From positions 64,001 to 128,000 of the forward strand of contig CBDUPA010000013.1 of the NCBI GenBank assembly GCA_965368975.1: a stretch of DNA of 64,000 bases, read 5' to 3'. Below, piece by piece: positions 48,906 through 63,247 of the stretch. Both the position numbers and the translations under genes were made by a program. The notes below the pieces were generated by a model that saw only the letters and a list, made by a program, of their open reading frames with translations, made no database searches and was not told the DNA's origin. Position 1 is the first letter of the stretch. Each line of letters starts with the position of its first letter. This stretch comes from an uncultured bacterium. Lineage in GTDB: Bacteria > Acidobacteriota > Thermoanaerobaculia > Multivoradales > JAHZIX01.

Positions 48906-50420
48906 ATGGTCTTCAGCTCGCCCCTCTTCGTCTTCTACTTCCTGCCGCTGGCGCTGCTGACCTACTATGCCCTGCTGGCCGTCACCCGGCGCTCGAACTC
49001 GCCGGGCCTCCCCCTCCGGCACGTCGCCTTGACCCTGCTCAGCTACCTTTTCTACGGCTGGTCCAATCCCGCCTTCTGCCTGCTGATGCTGCTGTCGACG
49101 GGGATCGACTATCTGTGCGGCCTGGCGTTGGTCGGTCGCCTGGACCGCAGAGCGATCTTGGGCGTCGAGGACCTACCAAGGCTCGATCCTGAATGCGACC
49201 GGACGCGCGCCCAGAAGTGGGCGGTGACCGTGTCGGTGATCAGCAACCTGTCGCTGCTCGGCTTCTTCAAGTACTTCAATTTCGCCGTCGACAGCTACAC
49301 CGCACTCCTGGCTTCACTGGGCCTGGACGGAGCTAGTGCCGACACACTGCTGCGCGTCACGCTGCCGCTGGGCATCAGCTTCTACACCTTCCAGTCGATG
49401 AGCTACACGCTCGACGTCTACCGTGGCCAGACGGCACCGCTCGCCCGCTTCGTCGACTTCGCCTGCTACGTCTCGATGTTCCCGCAGCTGGTCGCCGGAC
49501 CGATCATCCGTTTCTCCGAGGTCGCCGAGCAACTGCGCGAGCGCACGCACACGCTCGAGAAGTTTTCCCGCGGCTGTGCCTTCTTCAGCCTTGGCATGGC
49601 CAAGAAGGTCCTGCTGGCCAATCCGTGCGGGCAGATCGCAGACCTGGTCTTCGACGCCGGCTCTGTGCACACGCTCGACGCCTGGTTCGGTCTCTTCGCC
49701 TACGGCTTCCAGATCTACTTCGACTTCAGCGGCTACTCGGACATGGCGATCGGCCTCGGCTTGATGCTCGGCTTCGTCTTCCCCAAGAACTTCGACTCCC
49801 CCTACAAGGCGCGCAGCGTCACCGATTTCTGGCGTCGCTGGCACATCTCGCTCTCCAGCTGGCTGCGCGACTATCTCTACATTCCCCTCGGCGGTAATCG
49901 CAAAGGCACGGCGCGCACCTACGTCAACTTGATGCTGGTGATGCTGCTCGGCGGCCTGTGGCACGGCGCGTCGTGGAACTTCGTCCTCTGGGGTGGGCTG
50001 CACGGCTTGTTTCTCGCTATTGAACGGATGCTGGGCAAGTCCAGTCCACTGCGTCGCTGGCCGATCGCGGCACAGGTCACCTTGACCTTCCTGCTGGTCA
50101 ACCTGCCGTGGGTCTTCTTCCGCGCCGAGACTCTCGACGGTGCCTTGGCTATGCTGGTCAGCCTGTGCGGTCTCGGTCCCCTCCTGCAAGGCGCAGACCC
50201 ACAGGCAGGCGCCACGCTCCTGGCCGGCTTGCTCTATACGCCGTACCACCTGATCTGCTTCAGCCTCGCCGCGCTCGTCACTTTCGGTGCGCCCCAAACC
50301 TGGGACTGGACGCGCCACCTCACACCCACGCGCGCCTTCGTCGCACTGCTGCTCTTTGCTCTCGCTCTGGTGTCCATGCTGAGCCAGGGCTACAACCCGT
50401 TCATCTATTTCATTTTCTGA
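48906..50420 (+). CDS. algI: MBOAT O-acyltransferase, AlgI-like
   Basis: MVFSS, LPLGISFYTFQ, FPQLVAGPI, FDFSGYSDMAIG, FWRRWHISLS, GLWHGA, NPFIYFIF. Confidence 0.9.
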   Translation: MVFSSPLFVFYFLPLALLTYYALLAVTRRSNSPGLPLRHVALTLLSYLFYGWSNPAFCLLMLLSTGIDYLCGLALVGRLDRRAILGVEDLPRLDPECDRTRAQKWAVTVSVISNLSLLGFFKYFNFAVDSYTALLASLGLDGASADTLLRVTLPLGISFYTFQSMSYTLDVYRGQTAPLARFVDFACYVSMFPQLVAGPIIRFSEVAEQLRERTHTLEKFSRGCAFFSLGMAKKVLLANPCGQIADLVFDAGSVHTLDAWFGLFAYGFQIYFDFSGYSDMAIGLGLMLGFVFPKNFDSPYKARSVTDFWRRWHISLSSWLRDYLYIPLGGNRKGTARTYVNLMLVMLLGGLWHGASWNFVLWGGLHGLFLAIERMLGKSSPLRRWPIAAQVTLTFLLVNLPWVFFRAETLDGALAMLVSLCGLGPLLQGADPQAGATLLAGLLYTPYHLICFSLAALVTFGAPQTWDWTRHLTPTRAFVALLLFALALVSMLSQGYNPFIYFIF

Positions 50421-50552: not shown

Positions 50553-50568
50553 TGGCACGGTCCTTGAA
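50553..50568 (+). promoter_or_regulatory. Candidate sigma54 promoter of the graspetide precursor operon
   Basis: TGGCACGGTCCTTGAA: exact TGGCAC-N5-TTG, with GA in place of GC at -12. Confidence 0.55.
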
Positions 50569-50683: not shown

Positions 50684-50839
50684 ATGAAGAAGCTAGAACG
50701 CGTCAACGGTGAACTGTTCGAGAGCCTGACCGTCGAGGAGACCCAGATGGTCGCCGGTGGTGCCGAAGGCACCGCGGAAGCCACCTACAACCAGACCTCC
50801 GGCTGGGATGCCAAGGCCGATATCAAGTTCAAGTTCTGA
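50684..50839 (+). CDS. Graspetide-type precursor 1, 51 aa: MKKLERVNGELFESLTVEETQMVAGG|AEGTAEATYNQTSGWDAKADIKFKF
   Basis: Hand translation; AGGAG RBS; GG leader. Confidence 0.92.
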   Translation: MKKLERVNGELFESLTVEETQMVAGGAEGTAEATYNQTSGWDAKADIKFKF

Positions 50840-50894
50840 TCCTAGGCTCGTCAGCCACCTCTACTTCACCTTCTGATGCATCAGGGGAACCACC

Positions 50895-51059
50895 ATGAAG
50901 AAGACGAAACTGGAGCGTCTGCAGGGCAAACTCTTCGAGTCTCTGAGCACGGAGCAGGTCCAGATGACAGCCGGCGGCGGCACCTACGTGCTCGACTACA
51001 GCTACAACGAGACCGGCATCTATGACGCCCAAGGTCTTCCGGACGCCCTGTTCAAGTAG
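50895..51059 (+). CDS. Graspetide-type precursor 2, 54 aa: MKKTKLERLQGKLFESLSTEQVQMTAGG|GTYVLDYSYNETGIYDAQGLPDALFK
   Basis: Hand translation; AGGGGA RBS; leader shares KLER..LFESL..E..QM.AGG. Confidence 0.9.
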   Translation: MKKTKLERLQGKLFESLSTEQVQMTAGGGTYVLDYSYNETGIYDAQGLPDALFK

Positions 51060-51144
51060 TGCAACTCAAGCGGATCGCACAGTTGCATACCTCCGTCAGA
51101 TACCGCATCGAATCACGCACTGAATCAACCAAGAGGACAGACCC

Positions 51145-51303
51145 ATGAAGAAGAAGCTGGAACGGATGAACGAAGACTTGTTCGAGAGCCTGAGCGTCGA
51201 AGAAACCCAGATGGTCGCCGGTGGTGCCGAGGGCACCGCTGAGGCCACCTACAACCAGACCTCCGGCTGGGACGCCAAGGCCGACATCAAGTTCAAGTTC
51301 TGA
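51145..51303 (+). CDS. Graspetide-type precursor 3, 52 aa: MKKKLERMNEDLFESLSVEETQMVAGG|AEGTAEATYNQTSGWDAKADIKFKF
   Basis: Hand translation; GAGGA RBS; core identical to precursor 1 with only synonymous DNA changes. Confidence 0.92.
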   Translation: MKKKLERMNEDLFESLSVEETQMVAGGAEGTAEATYNQTSGWDAKADIKFKF

Positions 51304-51318
51304 TTCACGTTTCGGTTC

Positions 51319-51367
51319 ACACAGAGACGGCGGAGAGCGGGAGTCTCCCTCTCCGCCGTCTCTGTGT
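51319..51367 (+). terminator. 19-bp perfect inverted repeat after the precursor genes
   Basis: ACACAGAGACGGCGGAGAG / CTCTCCGCCGTCTCTGTGT with an 11-nt loop and a T-rich tail. Confidence 0.85.
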
Positions 51368-51476
51368 TCACGTTTTCCGCTTCGTGTCGAGATCGGCTTG
51401 CCCCTGGGGCTCCACGACCGCCGAACTGATATCATGATGTTGCAGAAGCGGCCTGCGAGTTAGGGAAGGAAGGCCG

Positions 51477-52544
51477 ATGATCCTGATCCTCAGCCAGAGT
51501 GGTTTCGAGACCACCACCGAGCGGGTCATGGACTGGCTGGAAGCAGCTGGCGCCCCGCACCGGCGAGTGAACGGTCGTGATCTCAGTCGCGACGCTCGCC
51601 TCGATCTGCAGCTGGACGGCTGCGGCACGTCGCTGCGGCTGGAGAACGAGGGCGAACCGCTCGATCTCGATGCGGTCGATGCCGTGTGGGCTCGACGCTG
51701 GAGTGCCGATGCGCACCTCGAGACTCTCGGCTACTTCGAGCAGGGTGCCACGCCCGCGCCCCTACCCCACACTGCTTTCCAGATCCAGAAGCAGCTCAGC
51801 TTCGACCTGCACAAGCTCAGCGAGTTCTTCTTCGAACGCCTGCGAGACAGACCCTGGTTGACGCGACCGGGCACCATCAGTCCGAACAAGCTGACGGTCC
51901 TGGAGCGAGCCGTCGCTCACGGCATGGACATCCCGGCCACGCTGGTGACCACCGAGCGCGCGGCGGTGAGCTGTTTTGTCGAACGCTTCGAACGAGTGAT
52001 CACGAAGGTTGTCGGCGAGGTCGACATCTTTCCGTTCGAGGACGCGACGGCCATGCTCTATACCGCCCTCCTCGACGCCGCTGCGGTGGCAGCGCTGCCT
52101 GAGCACTTCTTCCCGTCGCTGTTCCAGGAGGCGGTGAGCAAGAGCTACGAAATCCGCGTCTTCTATCTCGACGGCCGGTGCGACGCCATGGCGATCTTCT
52201 CGCAGGCCGATGCGCAGACCGCTGCCGACTTTCGCAACTACAACTACCAGAAGCCCAACCGAAACGTCCCGTACCGCTTGCCGGCACGGCTCGAAACCAA
52301 GGTGCGCGCCTTGATGGACGAACTCGAGCTCGATACCGGCTCCCTCGACTTCATGAAGGCCCAGGACGGCCGCGACATCTTCCTCGAAGTCAATCCGGTG
52401 GGCCAGTTCGGCATGGTGTCGCTGCCCTGCAACTATCACCTGGAAAAGCAGGTGGCCGAGTACCTGGTGCGCCTGGCTACTGGATACGAGGCGGCGAGGC
52501 GACAGGAAGCAGCGGAGACGGAGGCGACCGGAGCTGAAGCATGA
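51477..52544 (+). CDS. gwsG: Grasp-with-SPASM system ATP-grasp peptide maturase
   Basis: MILILSQ..ETTTERVMDWL, NKL, FFPSLFQE, YEIRVFYL, AMAIFSQ, DFR, FLEVNPVGQFGMVS. Confidence 0.9.
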   Translation: MILILSQSGFETTTERVMDWLEAAGAPHRRVNGRDLSRDARLDLQLDGCGTSLRLENEGEPLDLDAVDAVWARRWSADAHLETLGYFEQGATPAPLPHTAFQIQKQLSFDLHKLSEFFFERLRDRPWLTRPGTISPNKLTVLERAVAHGMDIPATLVTTERAAVSCFVERFERVITKVVGEVDIFPFEDATAMLYTALLDAAAVAALPEHFFPSLFQEAVSKSYEIRVFYLDGRCDAMAIFSQADAQTAADFRNYNYQKPNRNVPYRLPARLETKVRALMDELELDTGSLDFMKAQDGRDIFLEVNPVGQFGMVSLPCNYHLEKQVAEYLVRLATGYEAARRQEAAETEATGAEA

Positions 52545-52762
52545 ACGAGCACGACGATGCACGCGCCTTCTTCCGCAGACTGAGCCCGCAGGCACAGGAA
52601 GAGGCGTCGATCCCCTATCGCTTCGCGGAGTTGCGCCGCCCCGAAGCCGTGGCGGTGCAACGCGTAGCGCAGAGTGACCACTATCGCAGCGACGCCTTCG
52701 AGTGCCGTGCCTTCCACAAGCCGATCTCCCGATGCTTTCCGCCCGTGGAGGAACCAGCATGA
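52541..52762 (+). CDS. Small hypothetical protein (73 aa) coupled between gwsG and gwsS
   Basis: ATGA overlaps at both ends; GGAG RBS. Confidence 0.7.
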   Translation: MNEHDDARAFFRRLSPQAQEEASIPYRFAELRRPEAVAVQRVAQSDHYRSDAFECRAFHKPISRCFPPVEEPA

Positions 52763-53793
52763 ATGGGGACCGCCGCTTCCGTCTCTTCGCGAACTGCATC
52801 CCTGTGCGCGGAGCCCGGCGCAGTGTGATCTGTGACCTGCAGCGAGGCAGCTATCGTTTCATCCCCAATGGCCTGTACGACATCCTCACCGCATACCCCG
52901 ACCGCACGCTGGACGAAATTCGAGCCGATTTCGAGGCCACCGAGCACGAGATCATCGACGAGTATTTCGATTTCCTGCTGCGCCACGAACTCGGCTTCTG
53001 GTGCGAGGAGCCGGAACGTTTTCCCGCTCTCGATCTCAGCTGGGAGGTGCCCCAGCGCATCACCAACGCCATCATCGATCTCGACGCAAGCTCCGAGCAC
53101 CAACACCCCAGCGCCTTCGCACAGCTGATCACGCAGCTCGACGACCTCGGTTGCAGAGCCTTGGAGCTGCGCGTATTCGCCGGCCTGGAACCCTCCCGAC
53201 TGCCAGCACTCCTCGCTACCTGCCAGCGCAGCCGCCTGCGCTCGATCGACCTGTTGACGCCCTACCAGGAAGGCATGCTCGATGATGACTGGCAGCAGCT
53301 GTGCCAGCAACATCCACGACTGAGCCAGATCGTGATCCACTCGGCGCCCGAGACACGCCGCATTCGCGTCGAGGGGACCGGCGTGCCCATCCACTACCGC
53401 CGCGAGCACATCAATGCGCCGAGCTGCTGCGGCCAGGTGCATCCGGGCTACTTCGTGTGCAACCTGAAGATGTTCACCGAGGCACAGACTCACAATACCT
53501 GCCTCAACCGCAAGCTGGCTGTCGATGCCGGCGGTGAGATCAAGAACTGCCCGTCCATGCCCCGCTCCTTCGGCAACGTTCGAGAGACATCTCTGCACAG
53601 CGCACTGGCGCACCGTGACTTCCCCCGCTGGTGGCGCGTGCACAAGGATCAGATCGACGTCTGCAAGGACTGTGAGTTCCGGTACCTGTGCACCGATTGC
53701 CGTGCCTACCTCAGCGATCGCGACAATCTCCTCTCCAAGCCCGCGAAGTGCACGTATGACCCCTACACGGCCAGCTGGGGATCGGCAAGCTGA
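52759..53793 (+). CDS. gwsS: Grasp-with-SPASM system SPASM-domain protein (no radical SAM CxxxCxxC)
   Basis: ANCIPVRGARRSVICDLQR N-terminus; CCG, NTCLNRK, IKNCPSM, CKDCEFRYLCTDCR, KPAKCTYDPY; start ATG 52759. Confidence 0.9.
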   Translation: MNGDRRFRLFANCIPVRGARRSVICDLQRGSYRFIPNGLYDILTAYPDRTLDEIRADFEATEHEIIDEYFDFLLRHELGFWCEEPERFPALDLSWEVPQRITNAIIDLDASSEHQHPSAFAQLITQLDDLGCRALELRVFAGLEPSRLPALLATCQRSRLRSIDLLTPYQEGMLDDDWQQLCQQHPRLSQIVIHSAPETRRIRVEGTGVPIHYRREHINAPSCCGQVHPGYFVCNLKMFTEAQTHNTCLNRKLAVDAGGEIKNCPSMPRSFGNVRETSLHSALAHRDFPRWWRVHKDQIDVCKDCEFRYLCTDCRAYLSDRDNLLSKPAKCTYDPYTASWGSAS

Positions 53794-53830: not shown

Positions 53831-55027
53831 TCAGCAAATGGCGTGCTGCCCTGTCCGTTCCTGCGCCCCTGAGGTGCGGATCCCATCGTCACCGTTCGCT
53901 TCCAGATCGTATTGGCGAATCTTGTTGAACAGCGTCTTGCGGCTGATTCCCAGGCTCTCGGCCGTGGCAGTGCGGTTCCCGTGGTAGATCAAGAGTCGAG
54001 ACAGAATCATCTGCTTCTCCACCTGCTCGGTCGCCTGCCCGACGGCCTCGGCCAGCGTCATCCGGTCCAACCGTTCGACCGATAGCCGGCCTTCGATCTT
54101 GCTGTGCCAGGCTGCCGAGATCGGCTTCTCAGGCTCGAGCAAACGTGCCGGCAAGTCCTCCTCCTGGAGGACGTCGGCGCTCGCCAGGACCATCGAGCGA
54201 CACAGAGTGTTCTCTAGCTCCCGTACGTTCCCCGGCCAGTCGTGGCGCACCAGGACGCGCATCGCCTCCGGGGTGATTCCCCGTATGCTCAAGCCGAGCT
54301 GGCGATTGATCTTGCTGACCAGGTAATTGCACAGCAAGGGAATGTCCTGGCGCCGCTCGCGCAGGGGCGGCAGCTCGACGTGCACCACGTTGAGCCTCCA
54401 GTACAGGTCATCCCGGAATCGCCCCTCGGCGACCTCCTGTTCGAGATTCTTGTTGGTCGCGGCCACCAGACGAACATCGACATCCCGCGGCTCACGCGCG
54501 CCGACCGGCGTATAGCGCCGCTCCTGCAGCACGCGCAAGAGCTTGGCCTGGGCATCAATCGCCAGATCTCCGACCTCGTCGAGGAAGAGAGTCCCGTGAT
54601 CAGCCTGCTCGAAGCGCCCGATGCGACTGTCTCGAGCGTCCGTGAAAGCGCCCTGGATGTGGCCGAAGAACTCACTCTCGACCAGGTTCTGCGGAATCGC
54701 GCTGCAATTGACCGCTACGAACGGACCGGCCACCCGCAAGCTGCCGCAGTGCAACGTCCGAGCCACCAGTTCCTTGCCGGTGCCCGACTCGCCGGTCACC
54801 AAGACCGTAGCGTCGACCCTGGCCACCTTGCTGACCGTGGCCAGCACCTGCTGGATCCCCGGACTGCGCCCGATCATCTGCGTCTCCTGCTGGCCGCAGT
54901 CCTGACGGCTGGGGCGCTGGCGGGGCGCCGGGGAAGCCTCGGACGAGGGCACCACCGAAGCGATGCCGGTTCGGCGGACTGAGGATCGATCCGCAACGGC
55001 TGAGGGAAGCATCGTTCTCACCTCCAT
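53831..55027 (-). CDS. Sigma54-dependent transcriptional activator (AAA+ and Fis HTH, no receiver domain)
   Basis: GESGTGKE, ESEFFGH-GAFTDA, LFLDEVG, FRDDLYWRLNV, WPGNVREL, LGISRKTL. Confidence 0.92.
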   Translation of the reverse strand: MEVRTMLPSAVADRSSVRRTGIASVVPSSEASPAPRQRPSRQDCGQQETQMIGRSPGIQQVLATVSKVARVDATVLVTGESGTGKELVARTLHCGSLRVAGPFVAVNCSAIPQNLVESEFFGHIQGAFTDARDSRIGRFEQADHGTLFLDEVGDLAIDAQAKLLRVLQERRYTPVGAREPRDVDVRLVAATNKNLEQEVAEGRFRDDLYWRLNVVHVELPPLRERRQDIPLLCNYLVSKINRQLGLSIRGITPEAMRVLVRHDWPGNVRELENTLCRSMVLASADVLQEEDLPARLLEPEKPISAAWHSKIEGRLSVERLDRMTLAEAVGQATEQVEKQMILSRLLIYHGNRTATAESLGISRKTLFNKIRQYDLEANGDDGIRTSGAQERTGQHAIC

Positions 55028-55141: not shown

Positions 55142-56059
55142 TCAAGACCTCGGCTTGCGAATCCGAGCGACCAGACCGTCTTGCAGCTTTACCCCAGAAG
55201 CTGCGGGCTCGAGTTCTGCCTCTACAAACACCAGTTGCGAGGCCGCGTCGACCTGGGGCGCGATCTGCGACACCGTGCCACGCAGCGTCAAATCCATGCC
55301 TTCCAGCGAGGCTTCAACGCGGTCGCCTGCCTGCAGGTGGCTGACGACCTGCGGCGGAACCGCGAAACGCAAGACGAAGTCGTCCGAAGCGATGAGCCGA
55401 AGCACGGGCGTGCCAGGGTGAACCTGGGCCCCGGGATCCAGGAAGCGGGCCGCAATGCGGCCGTCGATCGGGGCGCGCAGCACCGAGCGCTGGAGCCGGT
55501 TCTCCAGTTGCAGCACGTAGGCCGCCTGCTCAGCGACGCGGGCGCGGGCACTCTCGACGTCGGCCACTGCCATATCTCGCTCGCTGTGGCTGCTCTCCAA
55601 TTCTTCCTGCGCGAAGAGATCCGGCATCGTTCGGCGTCGGCGCAGCTGCTCCTCGGCTCGGCGCAACTCGACCTCGGCGCGGCGCACGTCGGCTGCCGCT
55701 GCTTGACGACTGGCCTGAGCTCGGGCCAGATCTTGCGTCAGCTCCTGGGTTTCCAGGCGGGCCAACGGCTGCCCCGTCAGCACCGCATCCCCGACCCGCA
55801 CGGCCACTTCGGCAAGCGTGCCGTCGACCTCGGCGCCCAGGTCGACAGCCTGCCGTGCTACCACCACGCCGATCCAGCGCCCCTGCTCCGGCTCTGCCGC
55901 GGTGCCCACACCTTCGACCTCTTGCCCGGGAAGCGTGGAGCTTGCAAGCGGCGCTGGTCCCCCATCGTCGGGCACCGGCTCGGCAGAGCATCCGGCAAGA
56001 CCGCTCAGAGCGCTGAGCAGACTGAGAACCACAACGAGAAAGCCTTTTCTTGCAGGCAT
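55142..56059 (-). CDS. Efflux periplasmic adaptor (MFP) lipoprotein
   Basis: LAGC lipobox from ATG 56059; VRVGDAV..GQPLARL and LRAPIDG lipoyl motifs. Confidence 0.85.
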   Translation of the reverse strand: MPARKGFLVVVLSLLSALSGLAGCSAEPVPDDGGPAPLASSTLPGQEVEGVGTAAEPEQGRWIGVVVARQAVDLGAEVDGTLAEVAVRVGDAVLTGQPLARLETQELTQDLARAQASRQAAAADVRRAEVELRRAEEQLRRRRTMPDLFAQEELESSHSERDMAVADVESARARVAEQAAYVLQLENRLQRSVLRAPIDGRIAARFLDPGAQVHPGTPVLRLIASDDFVLRFAVPPQVVSHLQAGDRVEASLEGMDLTLRGTVSQIAPQVDAASQLVFVEAELEPAASGVKLQDGLVARIRKPRS

Positions 56060-56170
56060 TTGCGTCCCTCTCTCTCGGCGCGGTAGCGGTTGACGCTCAA
56101 CGCTGGTGGTTGATACCGTGAGTCCAGGTGCCATGTTGCAAGCCGGGTCCATCACCTGGGGAGGTACAAC

Positions 56171-58156
56171 GTGAACGCCGCATCAACAACTGTACCAGTT
56201 CCCACCTTGCTGCTGGGCTTTCCAGCACCGCTGCGGCATCAGCTCGTCGACGCACTCGCAGGCCTCGTCGAAGACCTGCAAGCCAGCCCCCAGGCGGCAG
56301 ACGACCGGGCTCCGGCGTTGGTCTGCCTCGGACCGGAGTTGCCGGGGTCGCAGGCAGCGACCTGGCTGGAGCATTCGTTGCCACCGCCGGCGGTGACGTC
56401 GGCGGTTGGCACGTCGGCGGTTGGCACGTCGGCAGTAGGTCAACCGTTGGTTCTCGTACTCGCCGGCGGCGACGATCTCAGCCTTTTTCAGCCCTGGCTC
56501 GACGCCGATCAGCTCTACTACTTGAGCCCAGGGCCGCCACCGCCAGCGCAGCTCACGGCCCTCCTACGGAGCGCGGCGCAGCATTGCCGTGCCGCCACCC
56601 GGATGGCCGCAGGTATGGCACCTTCCGCTGCCCTCTCCGGCCCCCCGGCCACGGGTCTGACGCAGCCGGCAGTACAGCAAGCGCTTCGCCGCCTGGGTTT
56701 GCAGGATGATCCAGGCGATGGAGCCGAATTGCTGTCCGAAGCCGTCCGAGAGAGCGTTCGCGCCGATGGCGGTGTCTGCTGGCTGCACGACACCCGCGAT
56801 CAGAGCTTGTGGACACGCGACAGCAGCAGCGGTGGCGAACGCCGCCACAGCGCCAGTGTCGGCCTGACCAGCTTCGTCCTGCGCAGTGGTCTGGCCCTGT
56901 CTCTGCGACGCTCGAGCGAGGATCAGCGCTTCGACCCGGAAGCCGATGCTGTGGTGCTGCACTCAGGGCCCGCGGCCGTCAGCGAGGAGGACGCGGCAGA
57001 CCGATGGCTCGCCGTGCCGGTCAGGGCGCCGGCGGCAGACGGCGAGATCCACGGGCCCGTGATCGCCGTGCTGGTTGCCCAGCGCCACGGCAATCGTGCT
57101 GCCTTCAACCCTCACGACCAGCGAGTGCTGGAGCAGCTGGCGACGGCCGCGGCTCCCCACGTACTGGCCCTGGTCGAAGGCGATGCCACGCCCGAGCTCG
57201 AGGTCCCCCAGGCGGCCGCCGACCTGTTCCGCCGCGAGGCCCTGCGCGACTCGCTCCTGGGCCACGAGAGTGCTCGCGATCCGCTAATGCTGTCCCCGAC
57301 CTGGACACGCTGGTCCTACCGCCTGCTGGTGGCGGCGCTCGGTGCGGCGTTGCTGTTCTCGCTCGTCTTCGAGGTCGGCGAGTATGCCCGCGGTATCGCC
57401 GTGATCACCCTCGGCGGCCGTACCGACCTGACCGCCGTCGCCGCCGGAACCGCACAAGCCGTCGAAGTCGAACCCGGAGACGCGGTATCGGCCGGCCAGG
57501 TGCTGGTGCGGTTCTATGAGGCCGGCGAGCTGGCCGAGCTGGAGCGTATCGACCGCGAGATCGAGCTGCACCTGATCAACCGCCTACGCTTTCCCGCGGA
57601 TCCAGCCTCGGAGCAAGCTCTGCTGTCCCTGCGAGCGCAGCGTGAGCTGGCCACGGCACGCCTCGAGGAGCGCTCGCTCCGCGCCCCGGTGAGCGGCAGG
57701 ATCAGCGACCTGCGCGTGCGGGCCGGCCAGTACCTGACGCCCGGGCAACTCCTGCTGTCCGTGCTCCACGAAGATAGCGTGCCGAAGGCGGTCATTCTGC
57801 TACCTGGCGAGTACCGACCGCTGGTGCAAGAGGGGATGCGCGTGCGCCTGGAGATCTCCGGATACAACTATGCCTACCAGCTGCTGGACGTTGAGCAGGT
57901 GAGCGAGAACGTCGTCGGTCCGAACGAAGCTCGGCGCTACCTGAGCGAGGGCGTCGCCGACACGGTTCGTGTGCCGGGGCCCGTCGTCCTGCTCGAGGCC
58001 GCTTTGCCCTCGCTGACCTTCCAGGCTGACGGCGACATCTACCAGTACCACAACGGCATGCTCGGAACCGCCGAGGTTCGCGTACGGTCCGAGAAAATCC
58101 TGTTCACCCTCGTGCCCGGACTGAAAGCCGCGCTCACTTTCGCCAACGGGAGCTGA
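56171..58156 (+). CDS. GAF-domain / HlyD-family secretion protein fusion
   Basis: GAF-like segment (GLTSFVLRSG...RFDPEAD...LAVPV...FNPHD), LFRREAL, TM helix, LRAPVSG, GMLGTAEVRV. Confidence 0.82.
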   Translation: MNAASTTVPVPTLLLGFPAPLRHQLVDALAGLVEDLQASPQAADDRAPALVCLGPELPGSQAATWLEHSLPPPAVTSAVGTSAVGTSAVGQPLVLVLAGGDDLSLFQPWLDADQLYYLSPGPPPPAQLTALLRSAAQHCRAATRMAAGMAPSAALSGPPATGLTQPAVQQALRRLGLQDDPGDGAELLSEAVRESVRADGGVCWLHDTRDQSLWTRDSSSGGERRHSASVGLTSFVLRSGLALSLRRSSEDQRFDPEADAVVLHSGPAAVSEEDAADRWLAVPVRAPAADGEIHGPVIAVLVAQRHGNRAAFNPHDQRVLEQLATAAAPHVLALVEGDATPELEVPQAAADLFRREALRDSLLGHESARDPLMLSPTWTRWSYRLLVAALGAALLFSLVFEVGEYARGIAVITLGGRTDLTAVAAGTAQAVEVEPGDAVSAGQVLVRFYEAGELAELERIDREIELHLINRLRFPADPASEQALLSLRAQRELATARLEERSLRAPVSGRISDLRVRAGQYLTPGQLLLSVLHEDSVPKAVILLPGEYRPLVQEGMRVRLEISGYNYAYQLLDVEQVSENVVGPNEARRYLSEGVADTVRVPGPVVLLEAALPSLTFQADGDIYQYHNGMLGTAEVRVRSEKILFTLVPGLKAALTFANGS

Positions 58157-58158
58157 AC

Positions 58159-60468
58159 ATGCGCGACGCCGACAACCACGACAGCGGCAGGAACCCCGAA
58201 CACAGGGGCGGTACCGAGCCCACTGACGCGAGCGACAGCCTGCCGCTGTGGCAACGCTGGCCCGCCTTCCTCGGCGTCGACCTGTTGCGGCGACGCGCCA
58301 AACTGCGCTTCGTACAGCAAACTGCCGCCACGGACTGTGGCGCGGCCTGCCTGGCCATGGTGCTCAGCTACCACGGCAAGAACCTGCGTCTCAATGAGGT
58401 CCGCGAGGTCATGAGCGTCAGCCGCATGGGTGTCGACGCCTTCACCATCTTGGAAACCGGCCGCCACTTCGGTCTGCGTGGCCGTGCCCTCAAAGTGCGT
58501 GAGGTCGCGCACCTGCGCTATCTCGACCCGGGTGCCGTGCTGCACTGGCGGTTCAATCACTTCGTGGTTCTCGAACGCATCGAGAAGCGCGGCGCCTGGG
58601 TCGTCGATCCCGCCGTCGGCCGGCGCCTGATCCCATGGCCCGAACTGGGTCGTGCCTTCACCGGCGTCGCCCTGGTGTTCGAAACTAGCGAGGACTTCGA
58701 ACCTCTGCCGGCGGACCAGAAAGGCGTCTGGCGGTACCTGCGCCAGTTGCTCAGCCAGAGCGGCCTGCTCACCCGTATCTTGGTGACGTCCCTGCTGATC
58801 CAGCTGCTGGCACTGTCGGTGCCGGTGCTCACGGGCCTACTGGTCGACCGCGTGGTGCCACGTGGTGACCACAACCTGCTGCTGGTCCTGGTGGCCGGAG
58901 CCGCCGGCATCGTCGGCTTCAAGCTGCTCGCCGGCCTGGTGCGCTCCTTCCTCCTGCTCTTCCTGCGCACCCGTCTGGACGCCCGCATGACCGTGCAGTT
59001 CCTGGAGCATCTGGTTGCGCTGCCCTACCTGTTTTTCCAGCAGCGTTCCTCGGGCGATCTGATGATGCGCCTGAACAGCAACGCGGTGGTGCGCGAGATC
59101 CTCACTTCTGGCGCCATCTCGGGCATCTTCGACGGCGCCATGGTCTCTCTCTACCTCTTGCTGCTGCTGGCCGCCAACACCAAGATAGGGCTGGTGGTAG
59201 CCTTGCTCGGCCTGCTCCAAGTAGCTGTCTTCCTGGTGACTCGCAAACGCCAAGCCGAGCTGATGACCGAGACCCTGCAGACGCAGGCCGACGCCCGTGG
59301 CTTCGAGGTCCAGTTGCTGTCCGGCATCGAGACCCTGAAGTCGAGCGGCGCGGAGTTCCGCGCCGTCGAGCGCTGGTCGCACCTCTTCGTGCGCGAGCTC
59401 AACGTCTCGCTCGACCGCGGCCGGCTGGATGCCGGTGTCAACTCCGTGCTCGACGCCCTGGCCACCGGCGCACCGCTAGCCGTGCTGCTCTACGGTAGCC
59501 ACCTGGTGCTCGCCGGCGAACTCACCCTCGGCACCATGCTGGCGCTCAGCGCTCTGGCCCAGGGCTTCCTGGGCCCGCTGGCGACCCTGGTTCACACCTC
59601 CTTCCAACTGCAGCTTCTGGGTAGCTACCTGGAACGCCTCAACGACGTGCTGGAGACGCCGCGCGAACAGGAGAGTACCGAGAAGCGCATCGATGTCGGC
59701 GCCCTGCGTGGCCAGGTACGGGTCGACGAGGTGAGCTTCCGCTATGCTCCGATGGCGGCGCCCGCGGTTGCTGGAGTCAGCCTGGACATCCGTCCGGGAC
59801 AGCTGGTCGCCCTGGTCGGTTCTTCAGGCTCCGGCAAGTCGACCCTCGCCGGCCTGCTCGCCGGTCTCTACCGCCCAGACAGCGGCCGTATCCTGTTCGA
59901 CGGCCTGAGCTTGGCCGAGGCCGACTTGCGCCAGCTGCGCGGCCAGCTCGGTTTCGTGCCGCAGCACAGCTTCCTCTTCGGCATGAGCGTGCGCGCCAAC
60001 ATCGCGCTCAACGACCCGTCCCTGCCCCTCTCCCGGATCATCGAAGCGGCGCGCATGGCACAGATCCACGACGACATCTTGACCATGCCCATGGGCTATG
60101 AATCCCTGCTCGCCGATGGTGGCGCCTCGCTCTCCGGCGGCCAGCGCCAGCGGCTGGCGCTGGCCCGCGCCCTGGTACACCGCCCCAAGGTGTTGATTCT
60201 CGACGAGGCCACTAGCGCCCTGGATGCGGTCACCGAGGCGAGGATCCAGCAGAACCTGGCGCGCCTACGCTGCACCCGCATCGTCGTCGCGCATCGCCTG
60301 AGCACCATCCGTGACGCCAACCGCATCGTGGTCCTCGATCGTGGTCACTTGATCGAACACGGCAGCCACGACGAGCTCATGGCAGCACGAGGCAAGTATC
60401 ATGAGCTGGTCACGGCGCAACTACAGAAGAGCCAGGCCGCCACAATCGCCCCAGAATTGACCCCTTGA
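58159..60468 (+). CDS. Peptidase C39-containing ABC transporter (PCAT)
   Basis: QQTAATDCGAACL, LHWRFNHFVV, GSSGSGKS, LSGGQRQ, LDEATSALD. Confidence 0.95.
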   Translation: MRDADNHDSGRNPEHRGGTEPTDASDSLPLWQRWPAFLGVDLLRRRAKLRFVQQTAATDCGAACLAMVLSYHGKNLRLNEVREVMSVSRMGVDAFTILETGRHFGLRGRALKVREVAHLRYLDPGAVLHWRFNHFVVLERIEKRGAWVVDPAVGRRLIPWPELGRAFTGVALVFETSEDFEPLPADQKGVWRYLRQLLSQSGLLTRILVTSLLIQLLALSVPVLTGLLVDRVVPRGDHNLLLVLVAGAAGIVGFKLLAGLVRSFLLLFLRTRLDARMTVQFLEHLVALPYLFFQQRSSGDLMMRLNSNAVVREILTSGAISGIFDGAMVSLYLLLLLAANTKIGLVVALLGLLQVAVFLVTRKRQAELMTETLQTQADARGFEVQLLSGIETLKSSGAEFRAVERWSHLFVRELNVSLDRGRLDAGVNSVLDALATGAPLAVLLYGSHLVLAGELTLGTMLALSALAQGFLGPLATLVHTSFQLQLLGSYLERLNDVLETPREQESTEKRIDVGALRGQVRVDEVSFRYAPMAAPAVAGVSLDIRPGQLVALVGSSGSGKSTLAGLLAGLYRPDSGRILFDGLSLAEADLRQLRGQLGFVPQHSFLFGMSVRANIALNDPSLPLSRIIEAARMAQIHDDILTMPMGYESLLADGGASLSGGQRQRLALARALVHRPKVLILDEATSALDAVTEARIQQNLARLRCTRIVVAHRLSTIRDANRIVVLDRGHLIEHGSHDELMAARGKYHELVTAQLQKSQAATIAPELTP

Positions 60469-62183
60469 TGGCCCCCCACGACCACGAAGCCCGCCGCATC
60501 GCACAAGCTCACGTCCAGGCCGGTCGTACCGACGTCTCGCGCGGCACGGCCGGAGTTCTCCTGGTCGCTTTCCTCCTGCTGCTCGGGCTACCGCCCCTGC
60601 TGCACCACGACCTCCTCGGGTTCCTGGGCTGGACCCTGCCGGCGGCTTCGCACCCCGACAGCGAGCCTTTCGCCGACTTCGCGCTCAATCTGCCCGGCGC
60701 GCTACTCACCGATGGTCTGCTGGTCAAGAACCGGGCCGTGCAACGGGAACTACGACGCTTTGAGGACGAGTTGGACCGGGAGTTCCATCCTGCCCGTGCC
60801 CTGCGCCCTCACGTGCAATCCCTCTTGCTGCACCTGCGCCAAGGCAATCTCGAGGCCCTTGTCGGTGCCGACACCGGCAGCGGTCCCTGGCTCTACTTCC
60901 GTCCGGACGTGAGCTACCTCACCGGTCCCGGCTTCCTGGAGCCCGCGGTCCTGGCAGCTCGACGCCGGAGTACCGAGAGCTGGCAGGCGCCCCCCGAACC
61001 GGACCCGCGGCCGGCACTGCTACAGTTGCATCGGGAGCTGGCTGAGCGGGGTATCGACTTGGTTCTCTTGCCAACCCCCGTCAAGCCGATGCTGCATCCG
61101 GAAGGCTTTGCGGCTGGCGCCGAGTTGGGCGTGAGGGAGCTGCAGAATCCGTCCTGGAAGCACTTCCTGGCCGACCTGGAAGCGGCCGGCGTCGAGGTCC
61201 TGCTCCCCTGGCGGTTCGACCACGAACAGCAGCAGATCCAACACCCGCCGCTCTCGTCTCTGCGTACGGACACTCACTGGACGCCCGGCAGCGTCGAGAC
61301 GACCGCGACCGCCCTGGCGGAGCGCCTGGCTGGCCGCGTCCCGGCACTGCGTACACCACGGTTGGCGCGTGCCGATGTGCAAACCCAAACCGGTCTCGGC
61401 GACCTTGCCCGCATGTTGCAGCTGCCTGCGTCGCAGCAGCAGATCGGCGCAGAAACCATCACGACCCGCCCTATCGTCAGCGTCGACGGCAAGCCCTGGC
61501 AGTCCGCTCCGGATGCAGCAGTGCTCCTGCTCGGCGACAGCTTCACCAACGTCTACAGCCAGGCTGACCTCGGCTGGGGCGCTGGTGCCGGCCTGGCGGA
61601 GCAGCTGAGCTTCGAGCTGCAGGTGCCGGTGCAACGCCTGGCGGTCAATGACGGCAGTGACCTCGCCGTACGCCAGCGCTTGGCCGCGCTGCCTGCGGAG
61701 CGCTTCGAAACGCTCCGGGTCGTCGTCTACCAGTTCGCTGTGCGCGAGCTGACCACCGGCGACTGGCGTCCCGTGCCTCTGCCCGTGGGAGGGGCAGCAG
61801 CAGCGGCAGAGACAAACAAGACGACTTTCACCGGCCTGGAGCCCCTGCGTCTGGAGGCGAGACTCGCGAGTGCACCCGATCTGCCGAGTCCCGCCGAGCT
61901 TCCCTATCGCGACGGCATCGTCGGCCTGGTGCTGCGCGACCTGTCGACGCCGAACGCCGCTCCGAGTTTGCCGGAGGAAATCCTCCTCTACACCTGGTGG
62001 CTGCGCGACGGCAACCTGACCGCCGCCGCCAGCTGGGCTCCCGGACGCAAGCTCGAACTCGACATCGTCCCCTGGGCATCCGTGGCCCCGGACCTGGACA
62101 GCTACCAACGCGTCGAACCGGACGATCCCGAGGCCTTCCTGCTCGACGCCTACTGGACAGACCTGCCAGAATCGTCACCATGA
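60468..62183 (+). CDS. AlgJ/AlgX-like SGNH O-acetyltransferase
   Basis: N-terminal TM, WLYF, PxK, RTDTHWT, LLGDSF; ATG 60468 overlaps the PCAT stop. Confidence 0.85.
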   Translation: MAPHDHEARRIAQAHVQAGRTDVSRGTAGVLLVAFLLLLGLPPLLHHDLLGFLGWTLPAASHPDSEPFADFALNLPGALLTDGLLVKNRAVQRELRRFEDELDREFHPARALRPHVQSLLLHLRQGNLEALVGADTGSGPWLYFRPDVSYLTGPGFLEPAVLAARRRSTESWQAPPEPDPRPALLQLHRELAERGIDLVLLPTPVKPMLHPEGFAAGAELGVRELQNPSWKHFLADLEAAGVEVLLPWRFDHEQQQIQHPPLSSLRTDTHWTPGSVETTATALAERLAGRVPALRTPRLARADVQTQTGLGDLARMLQLPASQQQIGAETITTRPIVSVDGKPWQSAPDAAVLLLGDSFTNVYSQADLGWGAGAGLAEQLSFELQVPVQRLAVNDGSDLAVRQRLAALPAERFETLRVVVYQFAVRELTTGDWRPVPLPVGGAAAAAETNKTTFTGLEPLRLEARLASAPDLPSPAELPYRDGIVGLVLRDLSTPNAAPSLPEEILLYTWWLRDGNLTAAASWAPGRKLELDIVPWASVAPDLDSYQRVEPDDPEAFLLDAYWTDLPESSP

Positions 62184-63247
62184 AGACCTGCTGCCTCAGC
62201 CTTGCCTTGCTCCTTCTCGCCTGTACACCAGCTACGCCAGCGGCACCCGAAGAAGCTGCACCAACTGAGGAGGTGCCAGCTGAAGCCGAGTCAGCTAAAG
62301 CCAAGCGAGCAGGAGAGGAGCAAGCCCGCTTCGTAGAGTACTTGCGCGGCCTGCTCGCGCCGTCGACCGACAGGCGTACGATCCAGGGCCAGAGCGGCTG
62401 GCTCTACTTCCAGCCCGAACTGAGCTCGCTGACCGTCGAAGAGATCCGCGAGCCACTGGCTGCGATCCTCGACTTCCACCGCCAGTTGCAGGAACGCGGC
62501 GTCGAGTTGTTGTTCGCGCCCATCCCGGCCAAGGCCGCCGTCTACCCCGATCACCTGCCCGGTGCGCCCACCTTTGCACAGCCCCTCCCCAGGTTGGATA
62601 CGGTCCACGGTGAGTTCCTGGAGACCCTGCGGGAGCAAGGAGTCCCCGTTGTCGACCTGCTGCCGCTCTTCCTTGAACACCGCGATGACACCGAAGGTGC
62701 GATGCACTGCCGTCAAGACACGCACTTCTCCGGCCGCGCGACGGTCTTGATCGCACATTCTCTCGCCGAGCTGGTGCGGCAACGGGCTTGGTGGCAGGAG
62801 GTCGAGACCGGCCGTTTTGAGCCTGCCGGCCTTGCACGGGAGACCCGTCAGGTGACGATCGAGGGTGACCTCCGGCGCGAGTTGCCACCGCCCCAGCCCG
62901 CCGCCGAAACCTTGTCGCTGACCTTCGTCGGCCGTCGCGAAGGCGACGCCTTGTTGCCAATACCGCCGGACCGAGACAGCCCTATCCTCCTTCTCGGCGA
63001 CAGCCACACCCTGGTGTTCCACACCGGCGGCGATCTGCACGCCAAGGGTGCCGGCTTGGTCGACCAGCTCGCTTTCGAACTCGGCATGCCACTGGACCTG
63101 ATCGGCGTCCGTGGCTCCGGCGCCACGTCGTCGCGCGTCAACCTGCTGCGTCGCGGCGGCGTCGAGGGCAAGAAGCTGGTGATCTGGGTGCTGACGGCGC
63201 GGGAGTTGACGGAAGGGGATTGGAAACAGGTGCCGGTATCGCGCTAA
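62180..63247 (+). CDS. AlgX/AlgJ-like SGNH O-acetyltransferase, lipoprotein
   Basis: LLAC lipobox from ATG 62180; GWLYF, PAKAAVYPD, QDTHFS, LLGDSH. Confidence 0.85.
   Translation: MKTCCLSLALLLLACTPATPAAPEEAAPTEEVPAEAESAKAKRAGEEQARFVEYLRGLLAPSTDRRTIQGQSGWLYFQPELSSLTVEEIREPLAAILDFHRQLQERGVELLFAPIPAKAAVYPDHLPGAPTFAQPLPRLDTVHGEFLETLREQGVPVVDLLPLFLEHRDDTEGAMHCRQDTHFSGRATVLIAHSLAELVRQRAWWQEVETGRFEPAGLARETRQVTIEGDLRRELPPPQPAAETLSLTFVGRREGDALLPIPPDRDSPILLLGDSHTLVFHTGGDLHAKGAGLVDQLAFELGMPLDLIGVRGSGATSSRVNLLRRGGVEGKKLVIWVLTARELTEGDWKQVPVSR

What the first reader, a model, noticed from the sequence alone, without database searches (positions are those of the whole stretch)
50684..53793. Graspetide precursors with an exact antiparallel cross-link ladder and a compensatory change
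Seen: three unannotated GG-leader precursors lie upstream of an ATP-grasp and a SPASM-only protein. Numbering the core AEGTAEATYNQTSGWDAKADIKFKF from the GG, the even-position pairs with i+j=24 are all acid plus nucleophile: E2-K22, T4-D20, E6-K18, T8-D16, around an NQTSG turn. The divergent paralogue GTYVLDYSYNETGIYDAQGLPDALFK keeps S8-D16 and swaps E2-K22 for T2-D22; its positions 4/20 and 6/18 are non-reactive (V/L, D/Q). Known: graspetide ATP-grasp ligases join Asp/Glu to Ser/Thr (ester) or Lys (amide). Inference: the product is a beta-hairpin stapled by up to four nested, alternating amide/ester links whose donor switches strand at each rung. I know no graspetide group with this topology.
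Basis: partly seen in the sequence, partly recalled or inferred. Interest (0 to 1): 0.93.

Follow-up and report, generated by a model that had tools for sequence, protein, structure and literature searches.

The report
Hairpin-ladder graspetide precursors, grasp-with-spasm cluster
Three small leader-bearing peptides sit beside a known but chemically uncharacterised peptide-stapling enzyme set, and relatives support a hairpin held by nested ester staples, while the proposed extra amide staples remain doubtful.

Summary
Three GG-leader ORFs (50684-50839, 50895-51059, 51145-51303) precede an ATP-grasp (TIGR04192, 281.9 bits, cut-off 230), a conserved 73-aa protein and a SPASM-only protein (TIGR04193, 336.1 bits, cut-off 175). 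The pairs E2-K22, T4-D20, E6-K18 and T8-D16 are exact. Such a four-rung run arose in 72 of 200,000 shuffles.

I assembled 20 distinct homologous cores. In the anchored register 54 of 80 cells are acid plus nucleophile. Slid registers give 0-24 of 71-80, and the opposite face gives 0 of 80. The hairpin register is therefore well supported.

The T/S-D rungs are widely conserved. The E-K rungs occur only in the window's subfamily. Of 7 cores with an acid at the outer rung's N-side, 4 have Arg, 2 Lys and 1 Thr. One relative has a swapped R-E at the inner charged rung. E-K amides would also break the published rule that the donor lies N-terminal to the acceptor.

Best reading: a grasp-with-spasm graspetide with two nested esters plus cross-strand charge pairs. 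The four-link alternating ladder has a probability of about 0.12-0.15. Nested ester ladders are already known (amycolimiditide, albusimiditide). Verdict: a new precursor family in a known, uncharacterised system.

The parts
50553..50567 (+). Sigma-54-type promoter-like site (TGGCAC-N5-TTGA), 117 nt upstream of pre1
   Evidence: It is the only match in the 64-kb window. 0.24 matches are expected by chance, and 22 of 100 shuffles had at least one. It is suggestive only because a sigma-54 activator lies in the cluster. No equivalent site was found upstream of the precursors in L107, L109 or L118.
50684..50839 (+). Precursor 1 (51 aa): GG leader plus a 25-aa core carrying the four-rung ladder
   Evidence: ORF and translation are. 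Homologues were found, and the rung table is.
50895..51059 (+). Precursor 2 (54 aa): divergent paralogue with S8-D16 and T2-D22 only
   Evidence: Translation, alignments. The same two-ester spacing (rungs 0 and 3) recurs in P0126. It also recurs in P0130 if that core is anchored by hand on T10 rather than the aligned T8; this is my own reading and was not computed.
51145..51303 (+). Precursor 3 (52 aa): core identical to precursor 1
   Evidence: Against pre1, the 25 core codons show 5 synonymous and 0 non-synonymous differences. The leader has 4 amino-acid changes and a 1-codon indel. The core is therefore under purifying selection.
51319..51367 (+). Strong stem-loop just after the pre3 stop codon, before the ATP-grasp gene. 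Probably an attenuator/terminator or an mRNA-stabilising hairpin.
   Evidence: RNA fold of 51300-51400 gives -52.6 kcal/mol, z = -6.45, and 0 of 200 shuffles fold as well. The simple terminator scan did not list it.
51477..52544 (+). Grasp-with-spasm ATP-grasp peptide maturase (355 aa)
   Evidence: TIGR04192 scores 281.9 bits against a cut-off of 230. The PF21068 pre-ATP-grasp domain scores 38.9 bits. The closest solved chains are 5ig8 (E 2.9e-23), 7m4s, 5ig9, 9bou and 7mgv. The FLEVNP..GQ and MVS.PCNY motifs are invariant across 28 homologues.
52541..52762 (+). Conserved 73-aa accessory protein with a KPIS motif, translationally coupled on both sides
   Evidence: No Pfam or NCBIfam hit. A homologous small ORF sits in the same position in related loci. 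The 18-sequence alignment has invariant P61-I62-S63 and near-invariant C55, F58 and K60. tblastn finds it in 35 of 169 loci. It is fused to the N-terminus of the SPASM protein in L015, L023 and L031. It is probably the 'LPL family' of Makarova et al. 2022 (passages).
52759..53793 (+). SPASM-domain protein without a radical-SAM cluster motif (344 aa)
   Evidence: TIGR04193 scores 336.1 bits against a cut-off of 175, and the SPASM domain model TIGR04085 scores 31.7 bits. There is no Pfam hit and no PDB sequence relative. Eight Cys are invariant in the C-terminal part across 14 homologues.
53831..55027 (-). Sigma-54-dependent transcriptional activator
   Evidence: PF00158 at 231.9 bits and HTH_8. 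Homologues occur in 3 of 169 related loci (L107, L109, L118). These are exactly the loci that carry the same precursor family and have enough upstream DNA.
55142..56155 (-). HlyD-family membrane-fusion protein
   Evidence: PF13437 and PF16576.
56171..58156 (+). GAF-domain/HlyD-family protein
   Evidence: PF13437 and PF01590.
58159..60468 (+). C39-peptidase ABC transporter, the expected GG-leader protease and exporter
   Evidence: PF03412 at 100.7 bits, plus PF00664 and PF00005. Homologues occur in 61 of 169 related loci.

Best explanation
This is a grasp-with-spasm RiPP gene cluster. The three precursors are translated, and the ATP-grasp ligase staples the core while the leader is still attached. 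A C39-peptidase ABC transporter then cleaves after the leader's GG and exports the product.

The core folds as a two-faced beta-hairpin. One face carries every reactive side chain. The other face is small or hydrophobic.

The most likely covalent links are nested omega-esters between a Thr or Ser on the N-terminal strand and the directly opposed Asp on the C-terminal strand:
- T8-D16 (the loop ring) and T4-D20 in precursors 1 and 3.
- S8-D16 and T2-D22 in precursor 2.

The interleaved E6-K18 and E2-K22 pairs most likely act as cross-strand charge pairs that pre-organise or stabilise the hairpin. One or both could instead be isopeptides.

The 73-aa KPIS protein and the SPASM-only protein probably act together. 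They are fused in some genomes. They may form an accessory or partner module of unknown chemistry.

Shown here: gene identities, the conserved register, the covariation and the conserved synteny. Inferred: the hairpin fold, which links form, and the role of the accessory pair.
For: Family membership:
- TIGR04192 scores 281.9 bits (cut-off 230) and TIGR04193 scores 336.1 bits (cut-off 175).
- A C39-ABC transporter and HlyD proteins lie next door.

The ladder in the window:
- A four-rung run arose in 72 of 200,000 shuffles of the pre1 core.
- The pre1 and pre3 cores differ by 5 synonymous and 0 non-synonymous changes, while their leaders differ by 4 residues and an indel.

Homologues found:
- HMMER over 1.84 billion representatives gave 9 hits at E<=0.001. 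One is pre2 itself and one is a spurious repeat protein.
- A profile search of the 5.8-billion-sequence set added P0131 to P0133.
- Profile searches of fetched loci added 9 precursor ORFs (8 distinct cores; L108 equals L109c) in L107, L108, L109, L114 and L118. All lie directly upstream of an ATP-grasp.
- P0132 and a grasp-with-spasm ATP-grasp carry consecutive NCBI accessions on one 6225-bp contig.

Register control on 20 distinct cores:
- 54 of 80 cells are reactive in register.
- 0-24 of 71-80 cells are reactive at shifts of -4 to +4.
- 0 of 80 cells are reactive on the other face.

Reactive pairs per rung:
- Rung 0 (8-16): 19 of 20.
- Rung 2 (4-20): 14 of 20.
- Rung 3 (2-22): 14 of 20, of which 10 are T/S with D/E, donor on the N-strand.
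- Rung 1 (6-18): 7 of 20.

Published precedent:
- Equal spacing of donors on the N-terminal stem and acceptors on the C-terminal stem correctly predicted the albusimiditide ladder (passages).
- 'Ring within ring (hairpin)' connectivity is a recognised graspetide type (section read).
Against: - No chemistry exists for any member of this system in the literature I could search, so every link is inferred.
- The anchoring used the inner T and D, so rung 0 is partly true by construction.
- The 20 cores are related, so the shuffle P-values overstate independence.
- P0124 has T-T and P0133 has C-D at rung 2. P0129 fits the register poorly.
- K18 is invariant in all 7 distinct cores of the window's subfamily and is never Arg there. 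This is also what a real isopeptide would predict.
- The ATP-grasp scores higher against the model named 'MvdC family' (151.4 bits) than against 'MvdD family' (118.3 bits). Its best PDB match is 5ig8. From memory only, MvdC/MdnB are the amide-forming microviridin ligases. This is a weak hint that the enzyme can form amides.
Confidence: 0.6

Rival explanations
1. Precursors 1 and 3 become a tetracyclic hairpin with alternating links: ester T8-D16, isopeptide E6-K18, ester T4-D20, isopeptide E2-K22. The acid sits on alternate strands at successive rungs.
For: - All four rungs are exact acid/nucleophile pairs on one face.
- P0128 keeps all four after a 1-residue shift.
- At the outer rung the family shows T-D, E-K, K-E (P0129) and D-T (P0131). 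Reactive pairs thus occur in both polarities, 14 of 20 against 8.6 expected.
- K18 is never Arg in the 7 distinct subfamily cores.
- Some graspetide synthetases make both esters and amides (section read).
- The enzyme scores above the MvdD model on the MvdC model.
Against: - Of the 7 cores with an acid on the N-side of the outer rung, 4 have Arg, which cannot be acylated in this way (P0123, P0132, P0124, P0125). P0133 has T-T there.
- P0125 has R-E at the inner charged rung.
- In the 12 cores outside the window's subfamily and P0125, that rung is unreactive.
- Every mapped graspetide is reported to have the donor N-terminal to the acceptor (passages). Rosaritide and corallotide also do.
- The E/K pattern in the subfamily can be traced to a single ancestral change, so it carries little independent weight.
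Confidence: 0.13
2. An intermediate model holds. There are three links in precursors 1 and 3: the two esters plus one reversed-polarity isopeptide, E6-K18. The outer E2-K22 pair is only a salt bridge.
For: - The inner charged rung is E/D-K in 7 of 7 distinct subfamily cores.
- The outer rung varies (K, R, T).
- In amycolimiditide and albusimiditide, outer links depend on inner ones (passage). An inner amide is therefore more plausible than an outer one.
Against: - It breaks the same donor-before-acceptor rule.
- P0125 has R-E at this rung.
- The whole DAKAD block is conserved in the subfamily, so conservation of K18 is not specific evidence.
Confidence: 0.12
3. The connectivity is different. 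It might be interlocked or cage-like as in microviridin or rosaritide, or use the loop residues T12 and S13, or depend on chemistry from the SPASM/KPIS pair. In that case the hairpin ladder is not the product topology.
For: - Cage-like connectivities exist in graspetides.
- Rosaritide's three esters interlock, with donors at 8, 9 and 11 and acceptors at 22, 24 and 26.
- The strictly co-occurring SPASM protein and the KPIS protein have no known function.
- Makarova et al. stress extreme core diversity within this branch.
Against: - Loop residues 10-13 are not conserved in the family alignment.
- Reactive residues fall on one face only, in one register.
- Loop length varies between the conserved inner T and D (7 to 9 residues inclusive). 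This fits a loop macrocycle.
- The window cores contain no Cys, the residue Makarova et al. suggest for SPASM-family thioether chemistry.
Confidence: 0.1
4. The three peptides are unmodified GG-leader bacteriocin-like peptides. They merely neighbour the maturase genes and are not its substrates.
For: - The only database similarity of the precursors lies in the leader and is below threshold: CTB-family bacteriocin NF038167 at 14-21 bits against a cut-off of 32, and PF14406 at 14-20 bits against 25.
Against: - Homologous precursors sit directly upstream of grasp-with-spasm ATP-grasps in the window and in L107, L108, L109, L114 and L118.
- P0132 shows the same adjacency through consecutive accessions.
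- No other precursor candidates were seen between 50.4 and 53.8 kb.
Confidence: 0.03

Closest known systems
Grasp-with-spasm system (NCBIfam TIGR04192 + TIGR04193). Probably equals 'branch 5' of Makarova et al. 2022 (PMC8939145) and graspetide 'group 14' in Carter et al. 2026 (PMC13097080).
   Same: Both marker proteins score above their curated cut-offs. The gene order ATP-grasp, small protein, SPASM protein is the same. The precursors have MKK...GG leaders, and a C39-ABC transporter and HlyD proteins are present. This is the family I file the cluster under.
   Different: Makarova et al. describe the branch as specific to Bacteroidetes, with many Cys-bearing cores (passages). The window is GC-rich (about 0.62-0.67). 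Its nearest ATP-grasps (at most 55% identity) come from Acidobacteriota/Thermoanaerobaculia and Longimicrobiaceae records. The cores have no Cys. The precursor family matches no Pfam or NCBIfam model above threshold. I found no product structure published for the system. I infer the equation with 'branch 5' and 'group 14' from their descriptions. I could not see their supplementary data sets.
Amycolimiditide and albusimiditide (graspimiditides)
   Same: Both are stem-loop hairpins with four nested omega-esters and equal spacing on the two stems. Albusimiditide's links are T19-D32, T17-D34, T11-D40 and T9-D42 (passages). The family found here has the same logic: T on the N-strand, D on the C-strand, constant i+j.
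   Different: Those clusters carry an aspartyl O-methyltransferase and form an aspartimide. No methyltransferase was seen among the ORFs scanned here. They have no SPASM protein, are actinobacterial, and use only esters with the donor always N-terminal. The window cores interleave E-K pairs of opposite polarity.
Plesiocin (group 2 graspetide)
   Same: It is cited as the example of the hairpin or 'ring within ring' pattern (section read). My preferred two-ester product for precursors 1 and 3 would likewise be a hairpin-like bicycle.
   Different: Plesiocin has several repeated motifs in one precursor. Here there is one core per precursor and three precursor genes. The enzyme family and accessory genes also differ.
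Microviridin ligases (closest solved structures 5ig8, 5ig9; NCBIfam MvdC/MvdD models)
   Same: The fold family and the pre-ATP-grasp domain PF21068 are shared. 5ig8 matches at E 2.9e-23 and 5ig9 at 9.5e-19. The MvdC model scores 151.4 bits and the MvdD model 118.3 bits.
   Different: Both scores lie far below those models' cut-offs (425 and 475). Microviridins are cage-like, not hairpins. The leader and core are unrelated.
Partner-protein-dependent graspetide synthetases (rosaritide MirB/MirC; Carter et al. 2026)
   Same: An obligatory, co-occurring accessory protein is needed for ligase activity and stability (abstract). The strictly co-occurring KPIS and SPASM proteins could play such a role.
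   Different: The accessory proteins are unrelated.

Membership tests
Grasp-with-spasm system | ATP-grasp matches TIGR04192 above its curated cut-off | tested here: met
   281.9 bits against a cut-off of 230, covering model positions 1-318.
Grasp-with-spasm system | An adjacent SPASM-domain protein matches TIGR04193 above its cut-off | tested here: met
   336.1 bits against a cut-off of 175. It lies 215 nt downstream of the ATP-grasp stop, separated only by the 73-aa ORF.
Grasp-with-spasm system | The SPASM protein lacks the usual N-terminal radical-SAM domain | tested here: met
   No Pfam family at E<=1. No CxxxCxxC in the N-terminal half by reading the translation. The invariant Cys in the N-terminal part are only C25 and C132. 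That this feature defines the family is my recollection of the model's description, not a call.
Grasp-with-spasm system / Makarova branch 5 | [quoted passage not shown] | tested here: inconclusive
   A conserved small protein is present in that position and aligns with 17 counterparts. The window protein reads ...SIPYRF... and one counterpart (L019) reads RLPLNFRF.
Graspetide (RiPP class) | Leader/core precursor encoded beside an MvdC/MvdD-like ATP-grasp with a pre-ATP-grasp domain | tested here: met
   PF21068 scores 38.9 bits against a cut-off of 27. Three GG-leader ORFs lie 170-790 nt upstream.
Graspetide (RiPP class) | Side-chain omega-ester or omega-amide macrocycles in the product | not testable with these tools
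   This needs mass spectrometry or NMR of the co-expressed peptide.
Graspetide (RiPP class) | Empirical rule: the donor (S/T/K) lies N-terminal to its acceptor (D/E) | tested here: met
   Met for T8-D16, T4-D20, S8-D16 and T2-D22. Not met for the proposed E2-K22 and E6-K18 links. The rule is quoted from the passages.
Graspimiditide (amycolimiditide-like) | [quoted passage not shown] | tested here: not met
   No methyltransferase domain was found among the 15 ORFs scanned between 46.0 and 63.2 kb.
Pfam PF14406 (ribosomally synthesized peptide in Bacteroidetes) | Score above the gathering threshold of 25 bits | tested here: not met
   20.2 bits for pre3, 13.8 bits for pre1, and no hit for pre2. 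The match covers the leader only, residues 1-35.
Microviridin (MvdC/MvdD equivalogs) | Score above the equivalog cut-offs of 425 and 475 bits | tested here: not met
   151.4 and 118.3 bits.

The most novel reading that the evidence does not exclude
Precursors 1 and 3 mature into a tetracyclic beta-hairpin whose four nested staples alternate ester, isopeptide, ester, isopeptide. In the two isopeptides the acid lies on the N-terminal strand and the lysine on the C-terminal strand. This would be the first graspetide to break the donor-before-acceptor rule. It would mean a single ATP-grasp can activate carboxylates on either strand of a bound hairpin. The SPASM/KPIS pair may act as an obligatory partner.
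Probability: 0.13. Interest if true: 0.8.

Novelty: new variant of a known kind. Interest (0 to 1): 0.55.

Why it matters
In the literature I could search, no member of the grasp-with-spasm group has a determined product.

The family assembled here gives that group its first explicit, register-level prediction of connectivity. The evidence is 20 cores, one face, one register, and covariation at the outer rung. One co-expression and mass-spectrometry experiment can test it: two water losses against four.

If only esters form, the result extends the 'equal spacing' ladder rule from actinobacterial graspimiditides to an unrelated enzyme branch.

If the E-K rungs are covalent, the donor-before-acceptor rule used by genome-mining tools to score graspetide cores would need revision. 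Alternating-polarity staples would also be a new way to rigidify beta-hairpins.

The fusion of the KPIS protein to the SPASM-only protein in some genomes, and the sigma-54 activator linked to this precursor family, give handles on the unexplained accessory genes and on regulation.

Tried and rejected
Searches and tools that led nowhere:
- A word-indexed search of the 5.8-billion-protein set with pre3 alone found only pre1.
- A metagenome scan with the precursor alignment A3 matched 487 stretches, and tblastn confirmed none. P0131 and P0132 fit the pattern used, so that collection evidently lacks their contigs.
- Six-frame searches with the precursor profile gave no full-length family member:
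  - 401 genomes of the window's phylum: only G000 and one spurious 19-bit hit.
  - 400 genomes of the class of G430: 0 at E<=1e-7.
  - 299 genomes of its order: 8 matches, none reaching beyond position 40 of the 52-position model.
- P0127 (550 aa, 9 matched stretches) is an unrelated tandem-repeat protein.
- I found no sigma-54 promoter motif upstream of the precursors in L107, L108, L109, L114 or L118.
- The MBOAT and AlgX-like genes flanking the cluster recur in almost none of the related loci: MBOAT in 1 of 169, AlgX-like in 0 of 169. I do not count them as part of the system, although the first AlgX-like gene overlaps the transporter gene's end by 4 nt.
- There is no compositional island.

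An alternative I considered: MAFFT aligns pre2 D22 with pre1 D20 through a 2-residue gap. That suggests a symmetric 2+2 insertion rather than a residue swap. Both readings give the same physical T2-D22 pairing.

Papers:
- Ramesh et al. 2021 (PMC8688276) is not held.
- I asked for no supplementary file. Makarova's additional files and the RODEO data sets may already list this precursor family.

The hairpin fold and the KPIS-SPASM binding were therefore not modelled.

Full report
WHAT IS THERE

Between 50.5 and 60.5 kb the plus strand carries three short ORFs with Shine-Dalgarno-like sites. They are pre1 (50684-50839), pre2 (50895-51059) and pre3 (51145-51303).

A very stable stem-loop follows at 51319-51367. 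It folds at -52.6 kcal/mol with z = -6.45, and 0 of 200 shuffles fold as well.

Three translationally coupled genes come next (ATGA overlaps):
- A 355-aa ATP-grasp (51477-52544).
- A 73-aa ORF (52541-52762).
- A 344-aa SPASM-domain protein (52759-53793).

NCBIfam places the two large proteins in the grasp-with-spasm system. TIGR04192 scores 281.9 bits against a cut-off of 230. TIGR04193 scores 336.1 bits against 175.

The ATP-grasp has the MvdD-type pre-ATP-grasp domain (PF21068). Its closest solved relatives are the microviridin-type ligases 5ig8, 7m4s, 5ig9, 9bou and 7mgv.

The SPASM protein has no Pfam hit and no PDB sequence relative. It keeps eight invariant C-terminal Cys but has no CxxxCxxC motif.

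Downstream lie four more genes:
- A sigma-54-dependent activator on the minus strand.
- A HlyD protein on the minus strand.
- A GAF/HlyD protein.
- A C39-peptidase ABC transporter.

These fit GG-leader cleavage and export.

THE OBSERVATION

Counting from the residue after GG, pre1 and pre3 have E2-K22, T4-D20, E6-K18 and T8-D16. pre2 has T2-D22 and S8-D16.

A run of four consecutive same-face acid/nucleophile pairs, in any register, arose in 72 of 200,000 shuffles of the pre1 core.

pre1 and pre3 differ by 5 synonymous and 0 non-synonymous changes in the 25 core codons. Their leaders differ by four residues and an indel. The core itself is therefore under selection.

RELATIVES

The ATP-grasp has many homologues. 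1239 proteins scored E<=1e-20 among 8000 candidates. None exceeds 55% identity, and most come from Acidobacteriota/Thermoanaerobaculia records.

I fetched 80 genome loci and 80 metagenome loci. Cores in this system are very diverse, as Makarova et al. noted for their 'branch 5' (passages).

True homologues of the window's precursors are rare:
- HMMER over 1.84 billion representatives gave nine hits. One is pre2 itself and one is a spurious repeat protein.
- A profile search of the 5.8-billion-sequence set added three.
- Profile searches of the fetched loci added nine precursor ORFs (eight distinct cores; L108 equals L109c) in L107, L108, L109, L114 and L118. All lie immediately upstream of an ATP-grasp of 40-43% identity.
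- P0132 and a grasp-with-spasm ATP-grasp have consecutive NCBI accessions on one 6225-bp contig.
- 1100 further genomes gave no full-length member.

THE REGISTER TEST

I anchored each of the 20 distinct cores on the conserved inner Thr/Ser and inner Asp. I then stepped outward two residues at a time.
- 54 of 80 cells are acid plus nucleophile in this register.
- Sliding the C-strand partner by -4 to +4 gives 0-24 of 71-80 cells.
- The opposite face gives 0 of 80.

Reactive pairs per rung:
- Rung 0: 19 of 20.
- Rung 1: 7 of 20.
- Rung 2: 14 of 20.
- Rung 3: 14 of 20.

Rung 3 corresponds to pre1 positions 2/22. Its states are T/S-D/E (10 cores), E-K (2 distinct), K-E (1), D-T (1), E/D-R (4), T-T (1) and G-D (1).

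Shuffling partners among sequences gives a mean of 8.6 reactive pairs (P about 0.002). Counting Arg salt pairs as well gives 18 of 20 observed against 10.0 expected (P about 1e-4).

These P-values ignore relatedness, and rung 0 is partly true by construction.

WHICH RUNGS ARE COVALENT

The T/S-D rungs are the conserved feature of the whole family. They have the orientation of every mapped graspetide, with the donor N-terminal to the acceptor (passages). The 2026 examples rosaritide and corallotide share that orientation.

Equal spacing on both stems is the rule that predicted the four-ester ladder of albusimiditide. It also holds in amycolimiditide.

The E-K rungs are different:
- Rung 1 is E/D-K only in the window's subfamily (7 distinct cores). 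It is R-E in P0125 and unreactive in the other 12.
- At rung 3, the seven cores with an N-side acid carry Arg four times, Lys twice and Thr once.
- Free K/R exchange and a charge swap are what cross-strand salt bridges predict. An obligatory isopeptide does not predict them.
- E-K links would also be the first with the acceptor N-terminal to the donor.

In favour of amides:
- K18 is never Arg in the subfamily.
- Reactive pairs of both polarities occur at rung 3.
- Some synthetases make both esters and amides.
- The enzyme scores higher on the 'MvdC family' model than on the 'MvdD family' model.

I therefore prefer two nested esters plus charge pairs (confidence about 0.6). I give about 0.12 to one extra isopeptide and about 0.13 to the full ladder.

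ACCESSORY GENES

The 73-aa ORF is a real gene. A homologous small ORF occupies the same slot in related loci. The 18-sequence alignment has an invariant P-I-S and near-invariant C55, F58 and K60. tblastn finds it in 35 of 169 loci.

In L015, L023 and L031 it is fused to the N-terminus of the SPASM protein. This fusion argues that the two proteins work together. It is most likely the 'LPL family' that Makarova et al. proposed as a precursor chaperone, but I could not score it against their profile.

The sigma-54 activator has homologues in only 3 of 169 loci: L107, L109 and L118. These are the loci with the same precursor family and enough upstream sequence.

One sigma-54-like promoter site lies 117 nt upstream of pre1. 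It is the only match in the window, but 22 of 100 shuffles also gave at least one match.

COMPARISON AND NOVELTY

The cluster is a member of the grasp-with-spasm system. [quoted passage not shown] 2026.

I found no determined product for it. I searched graspetide+SPASM (5 papers), 'grasp-with-spasm' (1 paper), and a four-term search (15 papers). I read listings, abstracts and the passages cited. Journals without open licences are not covered.

Nested hairpin ladders are known. A ladder with alternating polarity and alternating ester/amide links would be new. The precursor family matches no curated model above threshold. I rate the finding a new variant of a known kind.

LIMITS

There is no chemistry. 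The contigs of most protein-database homologues could not be fetched. Supplementary tables of the key papers were not available. The phylum of the window's genome was not determined.

Noticed in passing
window 52541-52762; L015:4998-6305, L023:4989-6272, L031:5010-6260: The small KPIS-motif protein between the ATP-grasp and SPASM genes is fused to the N-terminus of the SPASM protein in three related loci. This gene-fusion evidence suggests the two proteins act as one unit.
   Followed up: partly
window 53831-55027 (-); L107:2033-3019, L118:1927-2913, L109:3-473: A sigma-54-dependent activator accompanies this precursor family and no other grasp-with-spasm locus fetched (3 of 169 loci). A single sigma-54-like promoter site lies upstream of pre1 (50553-50567). 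I found no such site in the other three loci.
   Followed up: partly
window 51319-51367: A stem of about 22 bp (-52.6 kcal/mol, z -6.45) lies between the last precursor gene and the ATP-grasp gene. It could set the ratio of precursor to enzyme transcripts.
   Followed up: partly
L008-L017, L075, L100 (downstream of the SPASM gene): The nearest Thermoanaerobaculia loci encode a different precursor family after the SPASM gene. Its cores look like T.T..T..ET.NP.PD..RDGD.E, with Thr on the N-side and Asp/Glu on the C-side. By eye these also look like nested ladders.
   Followed up: no
window 48906-50420 and 60465-63247: An MBOAT acyltransferase gene and two AlgX-like SGNH genes flank the RiPP and transporter block. 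The first AlgX-like gene overlaps the end of the C39-ABC gene by 4 nt. They are almost absent from related loci (1 and 0 of 169), so their link to the peptide is unclear.
   Followed up: partly
G000 contigs C7:133760-135342, C18:56244-56774, C5:70022-70642 (L002-L005): The same genome has four further, weaker ATP-grasp matches to the TIGR04192 model (78-111 bits, below the cut-off). Two of them are adjacent on C7. They may be other graspetide-type loci.
   Followed up: no
P0133 and P0130 (protein database homologues): P0133 has Cys opposite Asp at rung 2, where relatives have Thr. P0130 has two Cys in the N-strand. This is of interest because non-native thioester formation by graspetide synthetases is mentioned in Carter et al. 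2026, and because of the SPASM partner.
   Followed up: no
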